The notes under the pieces were generated by a model. It ran no database searches and had not been told where the DNA came from. It worked only from the letters and a program-made list of their open reading frames with translations. A DNA stretch of 64,000 nucleotides from Escherichia phage S127 BCL3. Position 1 is the first letter of the stretch; every line of letters starts with the position of its first letter. Below, piece by piece: positions 16,943 through 31,536 of this stretch. The position numbers and the translations under genes are program-made. The stretch lies in the sequence record OQ626344; one strand, given 5' to 3'.

Positions 16943-17749
16943 TTGAGCAAGAAAGAGTCCAACGACAAATATTACACAGACCCCGAGTATGCAGAATATC
17001 TTGTTGGTAAAGTAAAAGGTAAGTATGGGAATTGTGCATACGTTGAGCCTTCTGCTGGAAAGGGTTCTTTTTCAAAACTATTTTCAGAGATACTGTCGTA
17101 TGATTTGGTACCAGATCCTGAATTTGAAGGCCCAACCCCGTGTATTAAGGCAAACTTCTTAGAGGTGTATCCCAAGGCTGATGTATTCATAGGTAATCCT
17201 CCATTCGGCAAAAATTCGTCTTTAGCTTGCAAGTTCTTTAACCACTGTGCATCATTGCTAGAGCCTGGTGGAGCTATAGCCTTCATCTTGCCACGAACTT
17301 TTGAAAAAATATTTTTTGCAAACAAACTGGACATGTCGATGCACCTTATTTACAGCGAAAGGTGCCCCAAGAACTCGTTTTTACTTAACGGCAAACCTTA
17401 TGACGTGCCATGTGTTTTCCAAATTTGGGAGAAAAAGGTGTGCAATAGGGACCCTGTAGAGATCGGGGAGAATAAGTTATTTTCTTTTAGCACACCGGAC
17501 GATTACGACTTCTGTATAAGACGTGTTGGGTATAATGCTGGGAAAGTATTGGGAGATGATGACCCAAAATCTGAAGAATCAACATATTTCATAAAATCTT
17601 TAGTTGATGGTGTTGACAGAGTGTTTGTTGAGTGCTATTCTTCTTTTCAAGAAGAAGCAGGTAAGACTGCTGGAATGAAGAGTATAGGCAAGAAAGAACT
17701 ACAATACATTTTGGAGACCAGGTATGATCAAAAGCATAGACTTGACTAA
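16943..17749 (+). CDS. DNA N6-adenine (or N4-cytosine) methyltransferase
   Basis: Motif I-like EPSAGKGSF, motif IV NPPF; TTG start after terminator with GGAGGT RBS. Confidence 0.6.
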   Translation: MSKKESNDKYYTDPEYAEYLVGKVKGKYGNCAYVEPSAGKGSFSKLFSEILSYDLVPDPEFEGPTPCIKANFLEVYPKADVFIGNPPFGKNSSLACKFFNHCASLLEPGGAIAFILPRTFEKIFFANKLDMSMHLIYSERCPKNSFLLNGKPYDVPCVFQIWEKKVCNRDPVEIGENKLFSFSTPDDYDFCIRRVGYNAGKVLGDDDPKSEESTYFIKSLVDGVDRVFVECYSSFQEEAGKTAGMKSIGKKELQYILETRYDQKHRLD

Positions 17750-18182
17750 AGAGCTTACCGATGCAAAAGCTTTTGGTGAGACAGCCGTGCAAAGGGGGCA
17801 GGCTATGGGGCTGGCACTACCTTTTGTCTTAAAAGAGCATTTTACAGATTTTCAGCTTATCCGAGGTGAAAAGGGTATGCTTATTCTGGAACATAAGCTG
17901 AGTAAGAAACGTTATAAAGTTGTTTTTAATTCTAAAGCTCCAACAAAACTTGGATTCAGAACTTACAATCTCAACCCTTCTTATACTAAGGGTGTTGGGA
18001 GAGTGGAGCAGCAGCATTTTAGTGCTAGAGCTTCTTTAGCCCCTTTGATGATAAATTTCTCAGGTGTGGCTTTAGGATACCTAGATAAGAAAAGAGTTCT
18101 TCATGTTCGTTTTACAGACTTTGTAACGCTTTTAGCTAACAACGAAGTAGATGAAAAGGGACGTGTAAAAACAAACTTCTAA
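17724..18182 (+). CDS. hypothetical protein
   Basis: 152 aa ORF with GGAGAC RBS. Confidence 0.5.
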   Translation: MIKSIDLTKELTDAKAFGETAVQRGQAMGLALPFVLKEHFTDFQLIRGEKGMLILEHKLSKKRYKVVFNSKAPTKLGFRTYNLNPSYTKGVGRVEQQHFSARASLAPLMINFSGVALGYLDKKRVLHVRFTDFVTLLANNEVDEKGRVKTNF

Positions 18183-18197
18183 TAACGCACAGTATGA

Positions 18198-18401
18198 TTG
18201 GAGACCGCAATGACACCAGAGTTAACAATTCCAGACAGCTTTTCAGAAGACTTTGTTCCAGAGATGATGGGGAAGATGCGATCACTGCTTGATCAGATTG
18301 AGGAGGCTGTTTGGGAAGATGATGCTGTAGTGGCTAACGAGCTGGTAGATAAGTGTAAAAGTATTATTGATGCAGTCGAAGAATATCACGGAGGTTTTTA
18401 A
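18198..18401 (+). CDS. hypothetical acidic protein
   Basis: 67 aa ORF with GGAGAC RBS. Confidence 0.45.
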   Translation: METAMTPELTIPDSFSEDFVPEMMGKMRSLLDQIEEAVWEDDAVVANELVDKCKSIIDAVEEYHGGF

Positions 18402-19015
18402 TGGATATTATTGTTCTTAATGCTCCACCAAGTTCTGGAAAAGACCATATCGCAGATCTTTTGTTGGAAGCTATTCCAAACTCGCATCACCGCGAGGTAA
18501 AGGAAATGCTATTCAGCGTGGCAATTAAGGCAGCAGGTATTTCACCACAGTTGTGGAATGCATTCTATGATCGCCGCTATAAAGAAGAGCCGTGCCCGTT
18601 CTTGATGATCGATGGCAAGCACGTTTCTCCTCGTGAGTGGATGATCCATTGTAGCGAGGCCCTGATTAAACCTGTATTCGGCAGTGATGCCTTCGGAAAG
18701 GCCAGTGTTGCTTCTCTGGAGAAAGATTTCCCAGAAGGTAAAGGGGTTGTTGTTTACTCCGATGGTGGCTTCAAAGAGGAGCTGGCATGCCTTAGCGAGT
18801 ACGCATACAGCACAGGTGGAGATCTGTTGTTGTTCCGTATTCACCGGGCCGGATATGACTGGGGAAATGATTCCAGAACCTATCTAAGCCTGGAAAAGAA
18901 CGGAATAAAAGGAATTGAGTTCGATGTTGTAAACCCTGAAGGTGCACCTTGGGAATGTGCATCGGAGATTGTGTGCAAGTATATTGATACTAAAGAGGCC
19001 CAAGAAGAATGTTAA
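18401..19015 (+). CDS. deoxynucleoside monophosphate kinase-like P-loop protein
   Basis: N-terminal LNAPPSSGKDHIADLL resembles phage dNMP kinase P-loop. Confidence 0.5.
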   Translation: MDIIVLNAPPSSGKDHIADLLLEAIPNSHHREVKEMLFSVAIKAAGISPQLWNAFYDRRYKEEPCPFLMIDGKHVSPREWMIHCSEALIKPVFGSDAFGKASVASLEKDFPEGKGVVVYSDGGFKEELACLSEYAYSTGGDLLLFRIHRAGYDWGNDSRTYLSLEKNGIKGIEFDVVNPEGAPWECASEIVCKYIDTKEAQEEC

Positions 19016-29901: not shown

Positions 29902-30951
29902 ATGAATTTAACACCTCGCAGCACCATGGTACACGGCATGAAAGAAAAACAGAACGGCTTCGAACCGATGAGTAATAAAATGTTTGGTATGCCTGGTGGT
30001 ATTATGGAAACATACAGCTACCCAACGCCAGTTGTTGACCACGTGCTTTATATTGACGATCTTGATGATTTGCAGGATCATATGTCCCGTTTGCAAACAA
30101 TTCGTATGGCACAGCCGGAAGAAAGTATCCGTGTAATTGTTAACAGCCCTGGTGGTTGCGTCCACATTGCCATGGCGTATTTGCAGGCATTCCGCGAGTC
30201 TCAGGCAAGCGTTGTTGTACACGCTGAAGGGATGTGCTGCTCAGCAGGAACAATCTTATGGCTGGGTTGCAAAGAACGAACTGTGGCTCCGGACACAGAG
30301 TTTATGTTCCACTACTATCAAGGTGGCACCTATGGCAACGGTGTGAACATGAATACTCAGGTCAACTACTGGAAGAAACGTTTTGAACGCCTGATCGAAA
30401 AATACTACGGTGGGGTTCTGACAGAAGATGAGATCGCATCCATCACGGCTGGTGGAGAAGTGTGGTTGGATGGAGAAGAGCTGGCAGCTCGAACTGGTGC
30501 TATCATTCTGGACGATGAAAACATTCAGCGCATTCAGAATGGGCAGAAACCGAAAAAGCTTTTGGCAAAAAGTGATGAAGAAGGTGTGCTAGGCGAAGCA
30601 GGCCTGCCAGAGATTCACCAATGCACATCTCTGGACGAGCTGGTTCACGCTGTTGAGTCTGCAAAAGCAAATGGTATGAAAGGTGATGTTCACACTGTGT
30701 TCCTAAATCTGCAGATGGAGAGTGGTGAGACCGTTAAGATTGCACTGGGTGAGATTACCTCGGAAGATCTGCAGCGATTCTCTGTGGTAGAGCTTCAGGA
30801 CATTTTGTCCCAATTGAAAACCACCCTGAACGGAGGTGAAGAAGTTCAGGTTAAAGATAAGACCCGCAAGCGTCTGGTGGACAATATTATTAAAACAGCA
30901 AAAGAGCTCAATGAAAAAATCCTGGGCGCAGGAATTATCGAAGAAGCTTAA
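29902..30951 (+). CDS. ClpP-like serine peptidase with about 150-aa C-terminal extension
   Basis: VNSPGG, GMCCSAGT (Ser) and MFHYYQGG (His) align with ClpP INSPGG / GQAASMGA / MIHQPLGG. Confidence 0.65.
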   Translation: MNLTPRSTMVHGMKEKQNGFEPMSNKMFGMPGGIMETYSYPTPVVDHVLYIDDLDDLQDHMSRLQTIRMAQPEESIRVIVNSPGGCVHIAMAYLQAFRESQASVVVHAEGMCCSAGTILWLGCKERTVAPDTEFMFHYYQGGTYGNGVNMNTQVNYWKKRFERLIEKYYGGVLTEDEIASITAGGEVWLDGEELAARTGAIILDDENIQRIQNGQKPKKLLAKSDEEGVLGEAGLPEIHQCTSLDELVHAVESAKANGMKGDVHTVFLNLQMESGETVKIALGEITSEDLQRFSVVELQDILSQLKTTLNGGEEVQVKDKTRKRLVDNIIKTAKELNEKILGAGIIEEA

Positions 30952-30961
30952 ACATTAATCT

Positions 30962-30988
30962 TAAAGCCCTCTTCGGAGGGCTTTTATG
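30962..30988 (+). terminator. rho-independent terminator
   Basis: AGCCCTC-ttcg-GAGGGCT followed by TTTTAT. Confidence 0.55.
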
Positions 30989-31002
30989 ATCTGGAGATTT
31001 GC

Positions 31003-31536
31003 ATGACTTGTGCTAGAAAACCTGACGAACAACGTAACGCCTATGATGAATATGTGACACCAGAGTGGTGTGCAGAAGGGTTGTATGACCTCATTCCGTT
31101 CCCAGAAGATTGGACCTATTTGGAGCCTTGCAGGAATAGCGCCTCAGGTGTGTTCTACTCCCGTATGCCGTTAGGATCTGCATGGGGAGAAATCCAAGAA
31201 GGTGTTGACTATCTGAATACAGAATACAACCATGTTGACTGTATTATCACCAACCCGCCGTACAGCCTGGCTCGTGAGTTTGTGGACAAGGCGTTGAAAG
31301 ATGCCGACGTAGTTATTATGCTTTTGCGTCTTAATTTTCTGGAAAGCAAGGCCAGATTTGAATGGTGGCTTGATAATGCCCCTACCACTGTGATCACAAT
31401 ATCTAAGCGTCCATCATTCCAATCGAATGGCAGAACTGACGGGCAAGCATATGCATATTTTGTGTGGGACAAGAAGAACCGTTTAGACCTACCACCATTT
31501 ATGTGGTTGGCACCTCCGGAGGCAGACTTGAAATGA
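31003..31536 (+). CDS. DNA N6-adenine methyltransferase (small, NPPY motif)
   Basis: Catalytic motif IV IITNPPYSLAREF. Confidence 0.6.
   Translation: MTCARKPDEQRNAYDEYVTPEWCAEGLYDLIPFPEDWTYLEPCRNSASGVFYSRMPLGSAWGEIQEGVDYLNTEYNHVDCIITNPPYSLAREFVDKALKDADVVIMLLRLNFLESKARFEWWLDNAPTTVITISKRPSFQSNGRTDGQAYAYFVWDKKNRLDLPPFMWLAPPEADLK

What the first reader, a model, noticed from the sequence alone, without database searches (positions are those of the whole stretch)
16943..31536. Two orphan DNA methyltransferases without adjacent restriction enzymes
Seen in sequence: 16943-17749 (EPSAGKGSF and NPPF motifs) and 31003-31536 (NPPY motif); neither neighbour resembles a restriction endonuclease. Established knowledge: phage orphan MTases protect DNA from host restriction. 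Inference: self-methylation as anti-restriction; target sites unknown.
Basis: partly seen in the sequence, partly recalled or inferred. Interest (0 to 1): 0.4.

Follow-up and report, generated by a model that had tools for sequence, protein, structure and literature searches.

The report
Two solitary phage adenine DNA methyltransferases
The two genes are real stand-alone adenine DNA methyltransferases of an rV5-like E. coli phage; both were already annotated as such, and the small one is identical to an enzyme shown in 2025 to methylate GATC and to set off bacterial retron defences, so the finding is correct but largely known.

Summary
The window comes from a Vequintavirus (an rV5-like E. coli myovirus, 98.9% identical to phage ECP26). 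Both ORFs exist exactly where reported and carry intact gamma-class amino-methyltransferase motifs. AlphaFold models are confident (pLDDT 93 and 90). No neighbouring gene resembles a restriction enzyme. GenBank records already call both genes 'putative N6 adenine methyltransferase'.

MTase-B (31003-31536, 177 aa) is 177/177 identical to Bas51 gene bas51_0176. It is the only Bas51 methyltransferase with D69, D79 and T83, the residues mutated in published retron escapers. In that study T83P cut m6A at GATC from 1405 to 35 adenines. Bas51 has 703 GATC sites, or 1406 adenines.

GTAC stayed methylated in the mutant: 509 and 511 of 516 adenines. E. coli K-12 has no GTAC methylase. MTase-A (16943-17749, 268 aa, TaqI-like layout) is therefore the best candidate (my estimate 0.65). 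The rival is a Type III Mod-like methylase encoded outside the window.

The anti-restriction reading is untested. Vequintavirinae are very sensitive to six tested RM systems, but none of those cuts GATC or GTAC. The only demonstrated phenotype is a cost, namely retron triggering. Verdict: observation confirmed, interpretation partly supported, low novelty.

The parts
16903..16926 (+). Terminator-like hairpin ending the upstream DnaQ-like exonuclease gene, just before MTase-A
   Evidence: 10-pair stem with 6 G-C pairs, followed by a T-run. Sequence read.
16934..16938 (+). GGAGG Shine-Dalgarno sequence, 4 nt before the TTG start of MTase-A. A GTAC site lies at 16938-16941.
16943..17749 (+). MTase-A: 268-aa gamma-class (TaqI-like layout) N6-adenine methyltransferase with no restriction partner. 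Probable GTAC (GTm6AC) enzyme.
   Evidence: phrog_5172 at 1.5e-125 and phrog_799 'DNA methyltransferase' at 7.8e-14. Invariant motifs across 47 homologues. AF2 pLDDT 93.4. Foldseek hits to HsdM, BseCI, CamA and TaqI. Annotated 'putative N6 adenine methyltransferase' in Bas59, FV3 and Bas51. The GTAC assignment is an inference.
16964..16978 (+). MTase-A motif X (DKYYT, residues 8-12)
   Evidence: D8 and T12 are invariant and Y11 is nearly invariant in A1. Aligns to the TaqI and Ta1320 N-terminal 'TP' region. Coordinates.
17045..17071 (+). MTase-A motif I, the AdoMet-binding loop (EPSAGKGSF, residues 35-43)
   Evidence: Aligns to TaqI EPACAHGPF.
17195..17206 (+). MTase-A catalytic motif IV (NPPF, residues 85-88)
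   Evidence: Invariant G84-N85-P86-P87-F88-G89. Coordinates.
17345..17746 (+). MTase-A C-terminal part (residues ~135-268), specific to this family and carrying conserved YDVPCVFQIW and RRVG. Presumed target-recognition region.
   Evidence: Conservation. Confidently modelled. Not covered by any named Pfam family. The role in DNA recognition is an inference.
17724..18182 (+). 152-aa ORF that overlaps the end of MTase-A by 26 nt. Function unknown, and not a recognisable nuclease.
   Evidence: phrog_9938, unknown function. No Pfam hit. Unrelated to the bacterial candidate REase family. Next to the MTase-A gene in Vequintavirus and Phapecoctavirus.
30963..30985 (+). G+C-rich hairpin followed by a T-run (AAAGCCCTCTTCGGAGGGCTTTT) after the ClpP-like protease gene, just before MTase-B. 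A GATC site lies at 30988.
   Evidence: Read directly from the sequence. The automatic scan did not flag it. GATC position.
31003..31536 (+). MTase-B: 177-aa minimal gamma-class N6-adenine DNA methyltransferase specific for GATC, and a trigger of retron defence
   Evidence: 177/177 identical to Bas51 bas51_0176. The escape mutations D69G, D79G and T83P and the GATC depletion from 1405 to 35 adenines are in PMC12548924. phrog_799 at 5e-67. AF2 pLDDT 89.6.
31123..31155 (+). MTase-B motif I (EPCRNSASGVF, residues 41-51)
   Evidence: E41 and P42 are nearly invariant. The profile aligns to TaqI EPACAHGPF.
31207..31209 (+). MTase-B D69, the motif III Asp. It aligns to the Asp of TaqI 'ADFL'. This is the site of the retron-escape mutation D69G.
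31249..31263 (+). MTase-B catalytic motif IV (T83-N-P-P-Y87). T83P abolishes GATC methylation.
31533..31817 (+). 94-aa ORF whose start overlaps the MTase-B stop (ATGA). Function unknown.
   Evidence: phrog_12158. No Pfam hit. Conserved downstream of B across Vequintavirinae.

Best explanation
Both genes encode active, stand-alone, AdoMet-dependent N6-adenine DNA methyltransferases that mark the phage's own DNA as it replicates.

MTase-B is a minimal 177-aa catalytic domain with no separate recognition domain. It methylates the adenine of GATC on both strands. This is shown experimentally for an identical protein. It works so efficiently that essentially all GATC sites in packaged DNA are modified, whereas host Dam alone leaves almost none above the calling threshold.

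MTase-A is 268 aa, with an N-terminal catalytic domain and a family-specific C-terminal part. It is most likely the enzyme behind the second complete virion mark, GTm6AC. This is inferred, with a probability of about 0.65.

The marks would block only nucleases that are sensitive to Gm6ATC or GTm6AC. They give no general protection against restriction. B also has a cost: by methylating GATC in retron msDNA it sets off abortive-infection retrons. Whether the selected benefit is restriction evasion, escape from MutH or mismatch repair, or regulation of replication or packaging is not known.
For: What the genes are:
- Both match DNA methyltransferase families and have complete, conserved motifs in gamma order (X, I, II, III, IV).
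- The AF2 models are confident, and Foldseek matches TaqI, CamA, BseCI, PacII and Type I HsdM.

MTase-B and GATC:
- The window protein is 177/177 identical to bas51_0176. Among the four Bas51 methyltransferases, only this one has D69, D79 and T83.
- PMC12548924 reports that every sequenced retron escaper carries a mutation in this gene.
- Engineered D69G, D79G or T83P abolishes the defence.
- Nanopore 6mA counts are GATC 1405 / GTAC 509 / other 576 in wild type and 35 / 511 / 349 in T83P.
- I counted 703 GATC sites (1406 adenines) and 258 GTAC sites (516 adenines) in Bas51. Both motifs are therefore about 99-100% methylated.

MTase-A and GTAC:
- GTAC methylation does not depend on B, and E. 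coli K-12 has no GTAC methylase (established knowledge).
- The only other adenine methyltransferases in Bas51 are the A orthologue and a Type III Mod relative (EcoP15I Mod at E 2e-24). Characterised enzymes of the Mod type modify one strand of asymmetric sites.
- The known GTAC m6A enzyme M.Hpy99XII is gamma class, type IIP (PMC3936762).
- In 17 of 80 bacterial loci, A-family genes are followed directly by a conserved ~210-aa ORF with nuclease-like motifs. This suggests that the family's ancestral setting is Type II R-M acting on DNA.
Against: - There is no direct test of MTase-A. Its profile's best solved-structure match by sequence is the METTL5-like protein Ta1320 (E 6e-4), and JGI names some homologues 'predicted RNA methylase'.
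- The GTAC activity could belong to the Mod-like enzyme.
- For an anti-restriction role: Vequintavirinae are exceptionally RM-sensitive in the laboratory, and all known hosts are Dam+.
- GTAC is depleted in the window (observed/expected 0.60) even though it is fully methylated in virions.
- B loss-of-function mutants still plaque, with titres at most about 3-fold lower.
- B does not reach Pfam or NCBIfam curated cut-offs for any named family.
Confidence: 0.75

Rival explanations
1. MTase-A is not the GTAC enzyme. The Type III Mod-like methyltransferase encoded elsewhere in the genome makes GTm6AC. MTase-A either methylates another DNA motif hidden in the 'other' class of calls, or acts on RNA (rRNA or tRNA m6A, as METTL5 and TrmN6 do).
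For: - The A1 profile's best PDB sequence matches are Ta1320 and METTL5 (E 6e-4 and 0.03).
- Foldseek also matches TrmN and PH1948.
- Some homologues are named 'predicted RNA methylase'.
- 349 'other' m6A calls remain in the T83P mutant.
- Bas51 and ECP26 do carry a third adenine methyltransferase.
Against: - Characterised Mod-type enzymes methylate one strand of asymmetric 5-6 bp sites, whereas 509-511 of 516 GTAC adenines, on both strands, are modified.
- About 275 occurrences of an asymmetric 5-mer are expected in 140 kb. That fits the 'other' class better for the Mod-like enzyme.
- A has a TaqI-like two-part layout and phrog_799 DNA methyltransferase similarity.
- Bacterial homologues pair with a nuclease-like ORF.
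- METTL5-type enzymes are about 200 aa and lack A's C-terminal part.
Confidence: 0.25
2. The methyltransferases are kept mainly for reasons other than restriction evasion. Full GATC methylation of rapidly replicating phage DNA would prevent MutH-dependent cleavage and mismatch-repair interference. Alternatively, it would time replication, transcription or packaging, as Dam does for P1 pac cleavage. On this view any anti-restriction effect is incidental.
For: - Host Dam alone leaves only 35 of 1406 GATC adenines above threshold in the T83P mutant, so without B the phage DNA would be an unmethylated MutH substrate.
- The hosts are Dam+, so GATC restriction is unlikely in them (established knowledge).
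- Vequintavirinae lack effective RM protection.
- Both genes sit in the nucleotide-metabolism and replication module, next to DnaQ-like exonuclease, dNMP kinase, ThyX, Nrd and PhoH genes.
Against: - No experiment addresses this.
- B mutants grow nearly normally in the laboratory.
- The window shows only weak GATC clustering that could mark a regulatory or pac-like site (best 5 sites in 150 bp, P about 0.002 per window before multiple testing).
- This view does not explain the GTAC mark.
Confidence: 0.3
3. One of the two genes, most plausibly A, is an inactive relic carried along by synteny.
For: No activity has been assigned to A. It has Asn where most homologues have Asp in motif III (KANFL versus xDFL).
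Against: - All catalytic and AdoMet-binding residues are invariant across homologues of 35-95% identity.
- The gene is kept at 95% identity or more in about 120 Vequintavirus records and at 53% in Phapecoctavirus.
- Other family members share the D-to-N change.
Confidence: 0.05

Closest known systems
Bas51 (Escherichia phage WalterGehring) N6 adenine methyltransferase bas51_0176 / QXV85686.1, the retron Asa1/Squ1 trigger (Nakamura et al., PLoS Biol 2025, PMC12548924)
   Same: Its amino-acid sequence is identical to MTase-B (177/177). It sits in the same genomic position, after the ClpP-like protease gene. It is specific for GATC m6A.
   Different: Nothing at the protein level. The window comes from a different Vequintavirus isolate, closest to ECP26.
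Small phage Dam methyltransferases of Pfam PF05869 / TIGR01712 (phage N-6-adenine-methyltransferase)
   Same: They are about 170 aa with no separate recognition domain, they are phage-borne and solitary, and they are named as Dam-type adenine methyltransferases. One B homologue (P0203) carries a precomputed PF05869 hit.
   Different: B scores below the curated cut-offs (PF05869 19.2 versus 28.1 bits; TIGR01712 16.1 versus 97 bits). It belongs to a distinct family (phrog_799).
M.TaqI (TCGA, gamma-class N6-adenine DNA methyltransferase; PDB 2ibs, 1aqj)
   Same: Both proteins share its motif order and residues (TP..., EPxxxxGxF, (D/N)FL, NPP(Y/F)). A also shares the layout of an N-terminal catalytic domain followed by a C-terminal part, and the inferred 4-bp palindromic target.
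   Different: Sequence similarity is marginal (E 0.03-0.05 for A and 3e-5 for the B profile). TaqI is 421 aa with a large recognition domain and is part of an R-M pair. A's C-terminal part matches no known recognition domain.
M.Hpy99XII / M.HpyAXII (GTAC, m6A, type IIP, gamma class; Helicobacter pylori)
   Same: It has the same class and the same modification that is inferred for MTase-A (PMC3936762).
   Different: It has a cognate nuclease (R.HpyAXII).
E. coli Dam / T4 Dam (alpha-class, Pfam MethyltransfD12)
   Same: B does the same chemistry at the same site (Gm6ATC).
   Different: The permutation class is different and there is no detectable sequence match. B is analogous in function and is not a member of this family.
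METTL5 / Ta1320 / PH1948 (COG2263 'predicted RNA methylase', 18S rRNA m6A)
   Same: It has an NPPFG catalytic motif. It is the best profile-to-PDB sequence match for the A family, and the fold matches.
   Different: The matches are weak (E 6e-4). These proteins are about 200 aa and lack A's conserved C-terminal part. A's genomic setting in phages and next to nuclease-like ORFs in bacteria points to DNA as the substrate.

Membership tests
Gamma-class N6-adenine (amino) DNA methyltransferases | Class I Rossmann AdoMet-dependent methyltransferase fold | tested here: met
   AF2 pLDDT is 93.4 for A and 89.6 for B. Foldseek against the PDB gives probability 1.00 to TaqI, CamA, BseCI, PacII and HsdM.
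Gamma-class N6-adenine (amino) DNA methyltransferases | Linear motif order X, I, II, III, IV, with the AdoMet-binding region before the catalytic motif | tested here: met
   A has DKYYT (8-12), EPSAGKGSF (35-43), D54, NFL (71-73) and NPPF (85-88). B has YVTP (17-20), EPCRNSASGVF (41-51), E63, D69 and NPPY (84-87).
Gamma-class N6-adenine (amino) DNA methyltransferases | Catalytic (D/N/S)PP(Y/F) tetrapeptide conserved in the family | tested here: met
   It is invariant in both alignments.
Gamma-class N6-adenine (amino) DNA methyltransferases | A separate target-recognition domain C-terminal to the catalytic domain | tested here: inconclusive
   A has a conserved, well-modelled C-terminal part of about 130 aa, but it matches no known recognition domain. 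B is a single 177-aa domain with none.
Gamma-class N6-adenine (amino) DNA methyltransferases | Produces N6-methyladenine in double-stranded DNA at a defined sequence | not testable with these tools
   For B this is taken from the literature on an identical protein: GATC falls from 1405 to 35 adenines in T83P. For A there is only the inference that GTAC methylation persists without B.
Pfam PF05869 Dam / TIGR01712 phage N-6-adenine-methyltransferase (for B) | Score at or above the curated gathering/trusted cut-off | tested here: not met
   PF05869 scores 19.2 bits against a cut-off of 28.1. TIGR01712 scores 16.1 bits against 97.05.
Pfam PF07669 Eco57I / PF13651 EcoRI_methylase / PF05175 MTS | Score at or above the gathering cut-off | tested here: not met
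   All hits are below threshold and confined to the motif IV region.
Complete Type II restriction-modification system | A cognate restriction endonuclease gene adjacent to the methyltransferase | tested here: not met
   The neighbours are a DnaQ-like exonuclease, unknown PHROGs, a dNMP kinase and a ClpP-like protease. None hits a REase family. ORF 17724-18182 is unrelated to the bacterial partner family. Both genes are therefore solitary ('orphan') in the phage.
METTL5/Ta1320-type RNA m6A methyltransferases (considered for A) | Significant sequence membership and a compact single-domain architecture of about 200 aa | tested here: not met
   Only a weak profile hit was found (E 6e-4 over residues 4-110). 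A has an extra conserved C-terminal part of about 130 aa. The RNA substrate itself was not tested.
Retron-triggering phage methyltransferases (functional class) | Loss-of-function mutations in the methyltransferase let the phage escape a retron, and the target motif is present in the retron's reverse-transcribed DNA | not testable with these tools
   This is shown in PMC12548924 for the identical B protein. It cannot be tested computationally here.

The most novel reading that the evidence does not exclude
MTase-A would be the founding characterised member of an unstudied gamma-class family (phrog_5172, 'unknown function'), responsible for the complete GTm6AC mark on Vequintavirus DNA. Its bacterial relatives would form a new Type II R-M family together with an unnamed ~210-aa nuclease-like protein (motifs HGKxFE, FDI, PTSIK, LNPKIDSKxQRRLQCS) that has no Pfam, NCBIfam or PDB match.
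Probability: 0.5. Interest if true: 0.35.

Novelty: already known. Interest (0 to 1): 0.22.

Why it matters
The practical value is small but real. Vequintaviruses are popular candidates for phage therapy and biocontrol. Their virion DNA carries two complete adenine marks, at GATC and GTAC. These marks determine three things:
- which restriction enzymes can cut the DNA;
- whether m6A-dependent nucleases will attack it;
- whether methylation-sensing retrons will abort the infection.

Knowing that the 177-aa gene is the GATC enzyme explains the retron sensitivity of this whole phage group. Assigning the GTAC mark to MTase-A would close the remaining gap. It would also give a function to a PHROG currently labelled 'unknown', and it would point to a possible new restriction enzyme family in alphaproteobacteria.

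Tried and rejected
- **Palindrome avoidance in bacterial loci.** I compared the 17 loci with a nuclease-like partner against the 63 without, hoping to read off the family's target. There was no signal (GTAC observed/expected 0.87 versus 0.76), and homologues may differ in specificity anyway.
- **'Own site upstream of own gene'.** GTAC lies 5 nt before the start of A and GATC lies 15 nt before the start of B. The joint chance is about 0.4%. The sites are not conserved upstream of distant homologues, so I dropped this as evidence.
- **Naming PF26055.** This family is precomputed on many A homologues. It is absent from the local Pfam copy and from the paper library, so it remains unidentified.
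- **Genomic context of A homologues.** Long metagenomic contigs and plasmids showed no named restriction enzyme.
- **Foldseek of A against viral structures**. The hits are only uncharacterised or generic DNA methylases and give no clue to specificity.
- **Naming the bacterial partner protein.** Searches of Pfam, NCBIfam, the PDB and the 5.8-billion-protein collection found only 'hypothetical' proteins.
- **Literature on restriction digests or methylomes of rV5-like phages**. Nothing was found beyond PMC12548924. The Durham-collection papers held no Vequintavirus methylation data, and Kelly et al. 2023 is not in the library.
- **The ORFs coupled to A and B as hidden restriction or specificity subunits.** I rejected this because no family or profile similarity was found.

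Full report
**Origin of the window.** A megablast of window 16000-32000 against GenBank phages finds 114 records that cover 80% or more of the query. The best is Escherichia phage vB_EcoM-ECP26 at 98.9% identity, followed by other Vequintavirus (rV5-like) myoviruses. The region is the nucleotide-metabolism and replication module. It contains a DnaQ-like exonuclease, a dNMP kinase-like protein, an NT5C-like nucleotidase, ThyX, NrdAB, glutaredoxin, NrdDG, PhoH and a ClpP-like protease.

**Checking the observation.** ORF A is 16943-17749 on the + strand. Its TTG start lies 4 nt after a GGAGG Shine-Dalgarno and just after a terminator-like hairpin at 16903-16926. ORF B is 31003-31536 on the + strand, with an ATG start preceded by the hairpin AAAGCCCTCTTCGGAGGGCTTTT at 30963-30985.

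These motifs are not chance tetrapeptides.
- A matches phrog_5172 (E 1.5e-125, 'unknown function') and phrog_799 'DNA methyltransferase' (7.8e-14). B matches phrog_799 at 5e-67.
- Pfam and NCBIfam give only sub-threshold hits: Eco57I and MTS for A; EcoRI_methylase, Dam PF05869 and TIGR01712 for B.
- Searches of the 5.8-billion-protein collection return 822 homologues for A and 312 for B.
- In alignments of 47 and 41 diverse members, the AdoMet-binding and catalytic residues are invariant.
- AlphaFold2 on those alignments gives confident models, pLDDT 93.4 for A and 89.6 for B.
- Foldseek against the PDB returns class I methyltransferases with probability 1.00. For A these are the StySJI M protein, M.BseCI, CamA, M.TaqI, TrmN and PH1948/Ta1320. 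For B they are DIMT1/KsgA, Type I M subunits, CamA and PacII.
- Profile-to-PDB sequence searches align both families to the M.TaqI motifs. The A family also aligns to Ta1320 and METTL5.

Structure and motifs therefore establish gamma-class amino-methyltransferases. On their own they cannot separate a DNA substrate from an RNA substrate.

**Neighbours.** None of ten flanking ORFs matches a restriction endonuclease family. Two small ORFs overlap the ends of the MTase genes. One is 17724-18182, which overlaps A by 26 nt (phrog_9938). The other is 31533-31817, which shares an ATGA overlap with B (phrog_12158). Both are of unknown function.

**Prior knowledge.** Both genes are already annotated. 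Bas59 and Bas51 call them 'putative N6 adenine methyltransferase'. FV3 calls them 'putative DNA N6-adenine methyltransferase' and 'DNA methyltransferase', with cross-references to rV5. Both are conserved across the group. A is 90% or more identical in about 120 records and 53% identical in Phapecoctavirus. B is 95% or more identical in about 117 records and 47-66% identical in the other Vequintavirinae genera and in Stephanstirmvirinae, always downstream of the ClpP-like protease gene in the loci inspected.

**The decisive literature.** Nakamura et al. [quoted passage not shown] Engineered D69G, D79G or T83P abolished the defence. The enzyme was toxic when expressed alone in E. coli. Nanopore 6mA calling on virion DNA gave GATC 1405 / GTAC 509 / other 576 sites in wild type, and 35 / 511 / 349 in T83P.

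I identified Bas51 as phage WalterGehring (MZ501111) and fetched the whole genome. It carries four methyltransferase genes:
- bas51_0070, 441 aa, beta-class with a DPPF motif;
- bas51_0074, Dcm-like C5 cytosine methyltransferase;
- bas51_0176, 177 aa;
- bas51_0200, 272 aa.

Only bas51_0176 has Asp69, Asp79 and Thr83, and it is 177/177 identical to window MTase-B. MTase-B is therefore an experimentally characterised GATC-specific m6A DNA methyltransferase. The escape residues map to functional motifs. D69 aligns with the Asp of the TaqI 'ADFL' motif III, and T83 immediately precedes NPPY.

My count of 703 GATC sites (1406 adenines) and 258 GTAC sites (516 adenines) in Bas51 shows that both motifs are methylated to about 99-100%. 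The window itself holds 367 GATC and 115 GTAC sites.

**Who makes GTm6AC?** GTAC methylation is unaffected by T83P, and E. coli K-12 has no GTAC methylase (established knowledge). The mark must therefore be phage-encoded. The candidates are the A orthologue and bas51_0070.

The latter is a clear Type III Mod relative. Its PDB sequence matches are an H. pylori Mod at E 1.4e-28 and EcoP15I Mod at 2e-24. Characterised enzymes of that type modify one strand of asymmetric 5-6 bp sites. An asymmetric 5-mer would occur about 275 times in 140 kb, close to the 349 residual 'other' calls. This last point is my inference.

A has the TaqI-like layout expected for a monomeric enzyme acting on a short palindrome. 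The known GTAC m6A enzyme M.Hpy99XII is likewise gamma class, type IIP (PMC3936762).

Further support that the A family acts on DNA comes from its bacterial relatives. A scan of GTDB genomes returned 80 loci, mostly from Sphingomonadales and Rhodobacterales, with no conserved synteny. In 17 of them a conserved ~210-aa ORF starts within a few tens of bases after the MTase stop codon on the same strand. It carries the invariant motifs HGKxFE, FDI, PTSIK and LNPKIDSKxQRRLQCS. It has no match in Pfam, NCBIfam or the PDB, and all 292 relatives are labelled 'hypothetical'. I read it as a candidate restriction endonuclease. That is an inference from gene coupling and a D...(S)xK-like motif and has not been demonstrated. 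The phage ORF downstream of A is unrelated to it, so the phage enzyme is indeed solitary.

I put the probability that A makes GTm6AC at about 0.65.

**The anti-restriction interpretation.** The BASEL study found Vequintavirinae 'exceptionally susceptible' to RM systems and lacking 'any effective protection' (PMC8594841). The six systems tested were EcoKI, EcoCFT_I, EcoRI, EcoRV, EcoCFT_II and EcoP1_I. None recognises GATC or GTAC (established knowledge). The two marks are therefore irrelevant to that assay, and site-specific protection remains possible but untested.

Several points count against a simple protective story:
- The hosts are Dam+.
- GTAC is depleted in the window (observed/expected 0.60, the second lowest 4-bp palindrome after CTAG), while GATC is not (1.10).
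- B mutants still grow, with titres at most about 3-fold lower.
- The one demonstrated effect of B is deleterious to the phage, namely retron activation.

A notable by-product of the published data is that host Dam alone leaves only 35 of 1406 GATC adenines above the 60% calling threshold. The phage enzyme is therefore what keeps replicating phage DNA methylated. That is compatible with a role in avoiding MutH cleavage or in replication or packaging control, which I list as a rival at 0.3.

**Comparison with known families.** B works like Dam but is not a member of the Dam/T4 Dam alpha-class family. It also does not reach the cut-offs of the small phage Dam family PF05869/TIGR01712. It is a minimal gamma-class enzyme of phrog_799. 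A is a gamma-class enzyme of an unnamed family (phrog_5172). Many homologues carry a precomputed PF26055 hit, but I could not identify that family.

**Verdict.** It is out of date on 'target unknown' and unproven on purpose. Novelty is low because both genes are annotated and one is experimentally characterised. What remains open is the assignment of the GTAC mark to MTase-A, and the possible new restriction enzyme family that accompanies its bacterial relatives.

Noticed in passing
Bacterial loci L014, L022, L030, L038, L041, L044, L046, L050, L053-L055, L061, L062, L068, L073, L082, L088 (about positions 4750-5450 of each locus): An unnamed, conserved ~210-aa protein family (motifs HGKxFE, FDI, PTSIK, LNPKIDSKxQRRLQCS) is encoded immediately downstream of MTase-A-family genes in 17 of 80 bacterial loci. 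It has 292 members, all labelled 'hypothetical', and no Pfam, NCBIfam or PDB match. It is a candidate new Type II restriction endonuclease family.
   Followed up: partly
window 32903-33050, inside ORF 32757-33302: A cluster of 5 GTAC sites in 150 bp (6 in 300 bp; Poisson about 1e-5 per window) lies inside the orthologue of the Bas51 'putative glycosidase' bas51_0171. A premature stop (R87*) in that gene relieves retron Asa1 defence in PMC12548924. The protein is phrog_13467 (unknown function) with no Pfam hit. The cluster may simply reflect Tyr (TAC) codons.
   Followed up: partly
whole window: GTAC is markedly under-represented (115 observed against 191 expected, ratio 0.60), although it is fully adenine-methylated in virions of a close relative. 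GATC is not depleted (ratio 1.10). Several GC-rich 6-bp palindromes (CGATCG, TGGCCA, GGGCCC, GGCGCC, CTCGAG) are absent altogether.
   Followed up: no
outside the window; Bas51 MZ501111 64456-65781 and 67042-67806; ECP26 MK883717 11068-12411 and 9000-9764: This phage group carries two more methyltransferase genes between the helicase and primase genes. One is a 441-447-aa Type III Mod-like adenine methyltransferase with no Res partner (EcoP15I Mod at E 2e-24). The other is a Dcm-like C5 cytosine methyltransferase. The Mod-like gene is found at 90% identity or more in only about 87 records, against about 120 for MTase-A.
   Followed up: partly
window 16938-16941 and 30988-30991: A GTAC site sits between the Shine-Dalgarno sequence and the TTG start of MTase-A, and a GATC site sits 15 nt upstream of the MTase-B ATG. 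This could hint at autoregulation, but the sites are not conserved upstream of distant homologues.
   Followed up: yes
GenBank records MG0656xx ('Campylobacter phage A138, A112b, D#, C12 ...'): About 20 records labelled Campylobacter jejuni phages are 95-99% identical to E. coli Vequintaviruses across this region. They are probably mislabelled or are contaminating coliphages.
   Followed up: no
window 25307-27430: The anaerobic ribonucleotide reductase gene nrdD is intact here. In FV3, Bas51 and several relatives it is interrupted by an HNH homing-endonuclease insertion.
   Followed up: no
homologues of MTase-B in Seunavirus and Mydovirus phages (for example GAP31_129, kps11_154): Many B homologues are annotated as 226-227 aa with a low-complexity, charged C-terminal tail that runs over the start of the downstream ORF. 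This looks like loss of the stop codon or an annotation read-through, not a real extra domain.
   Followed up: no
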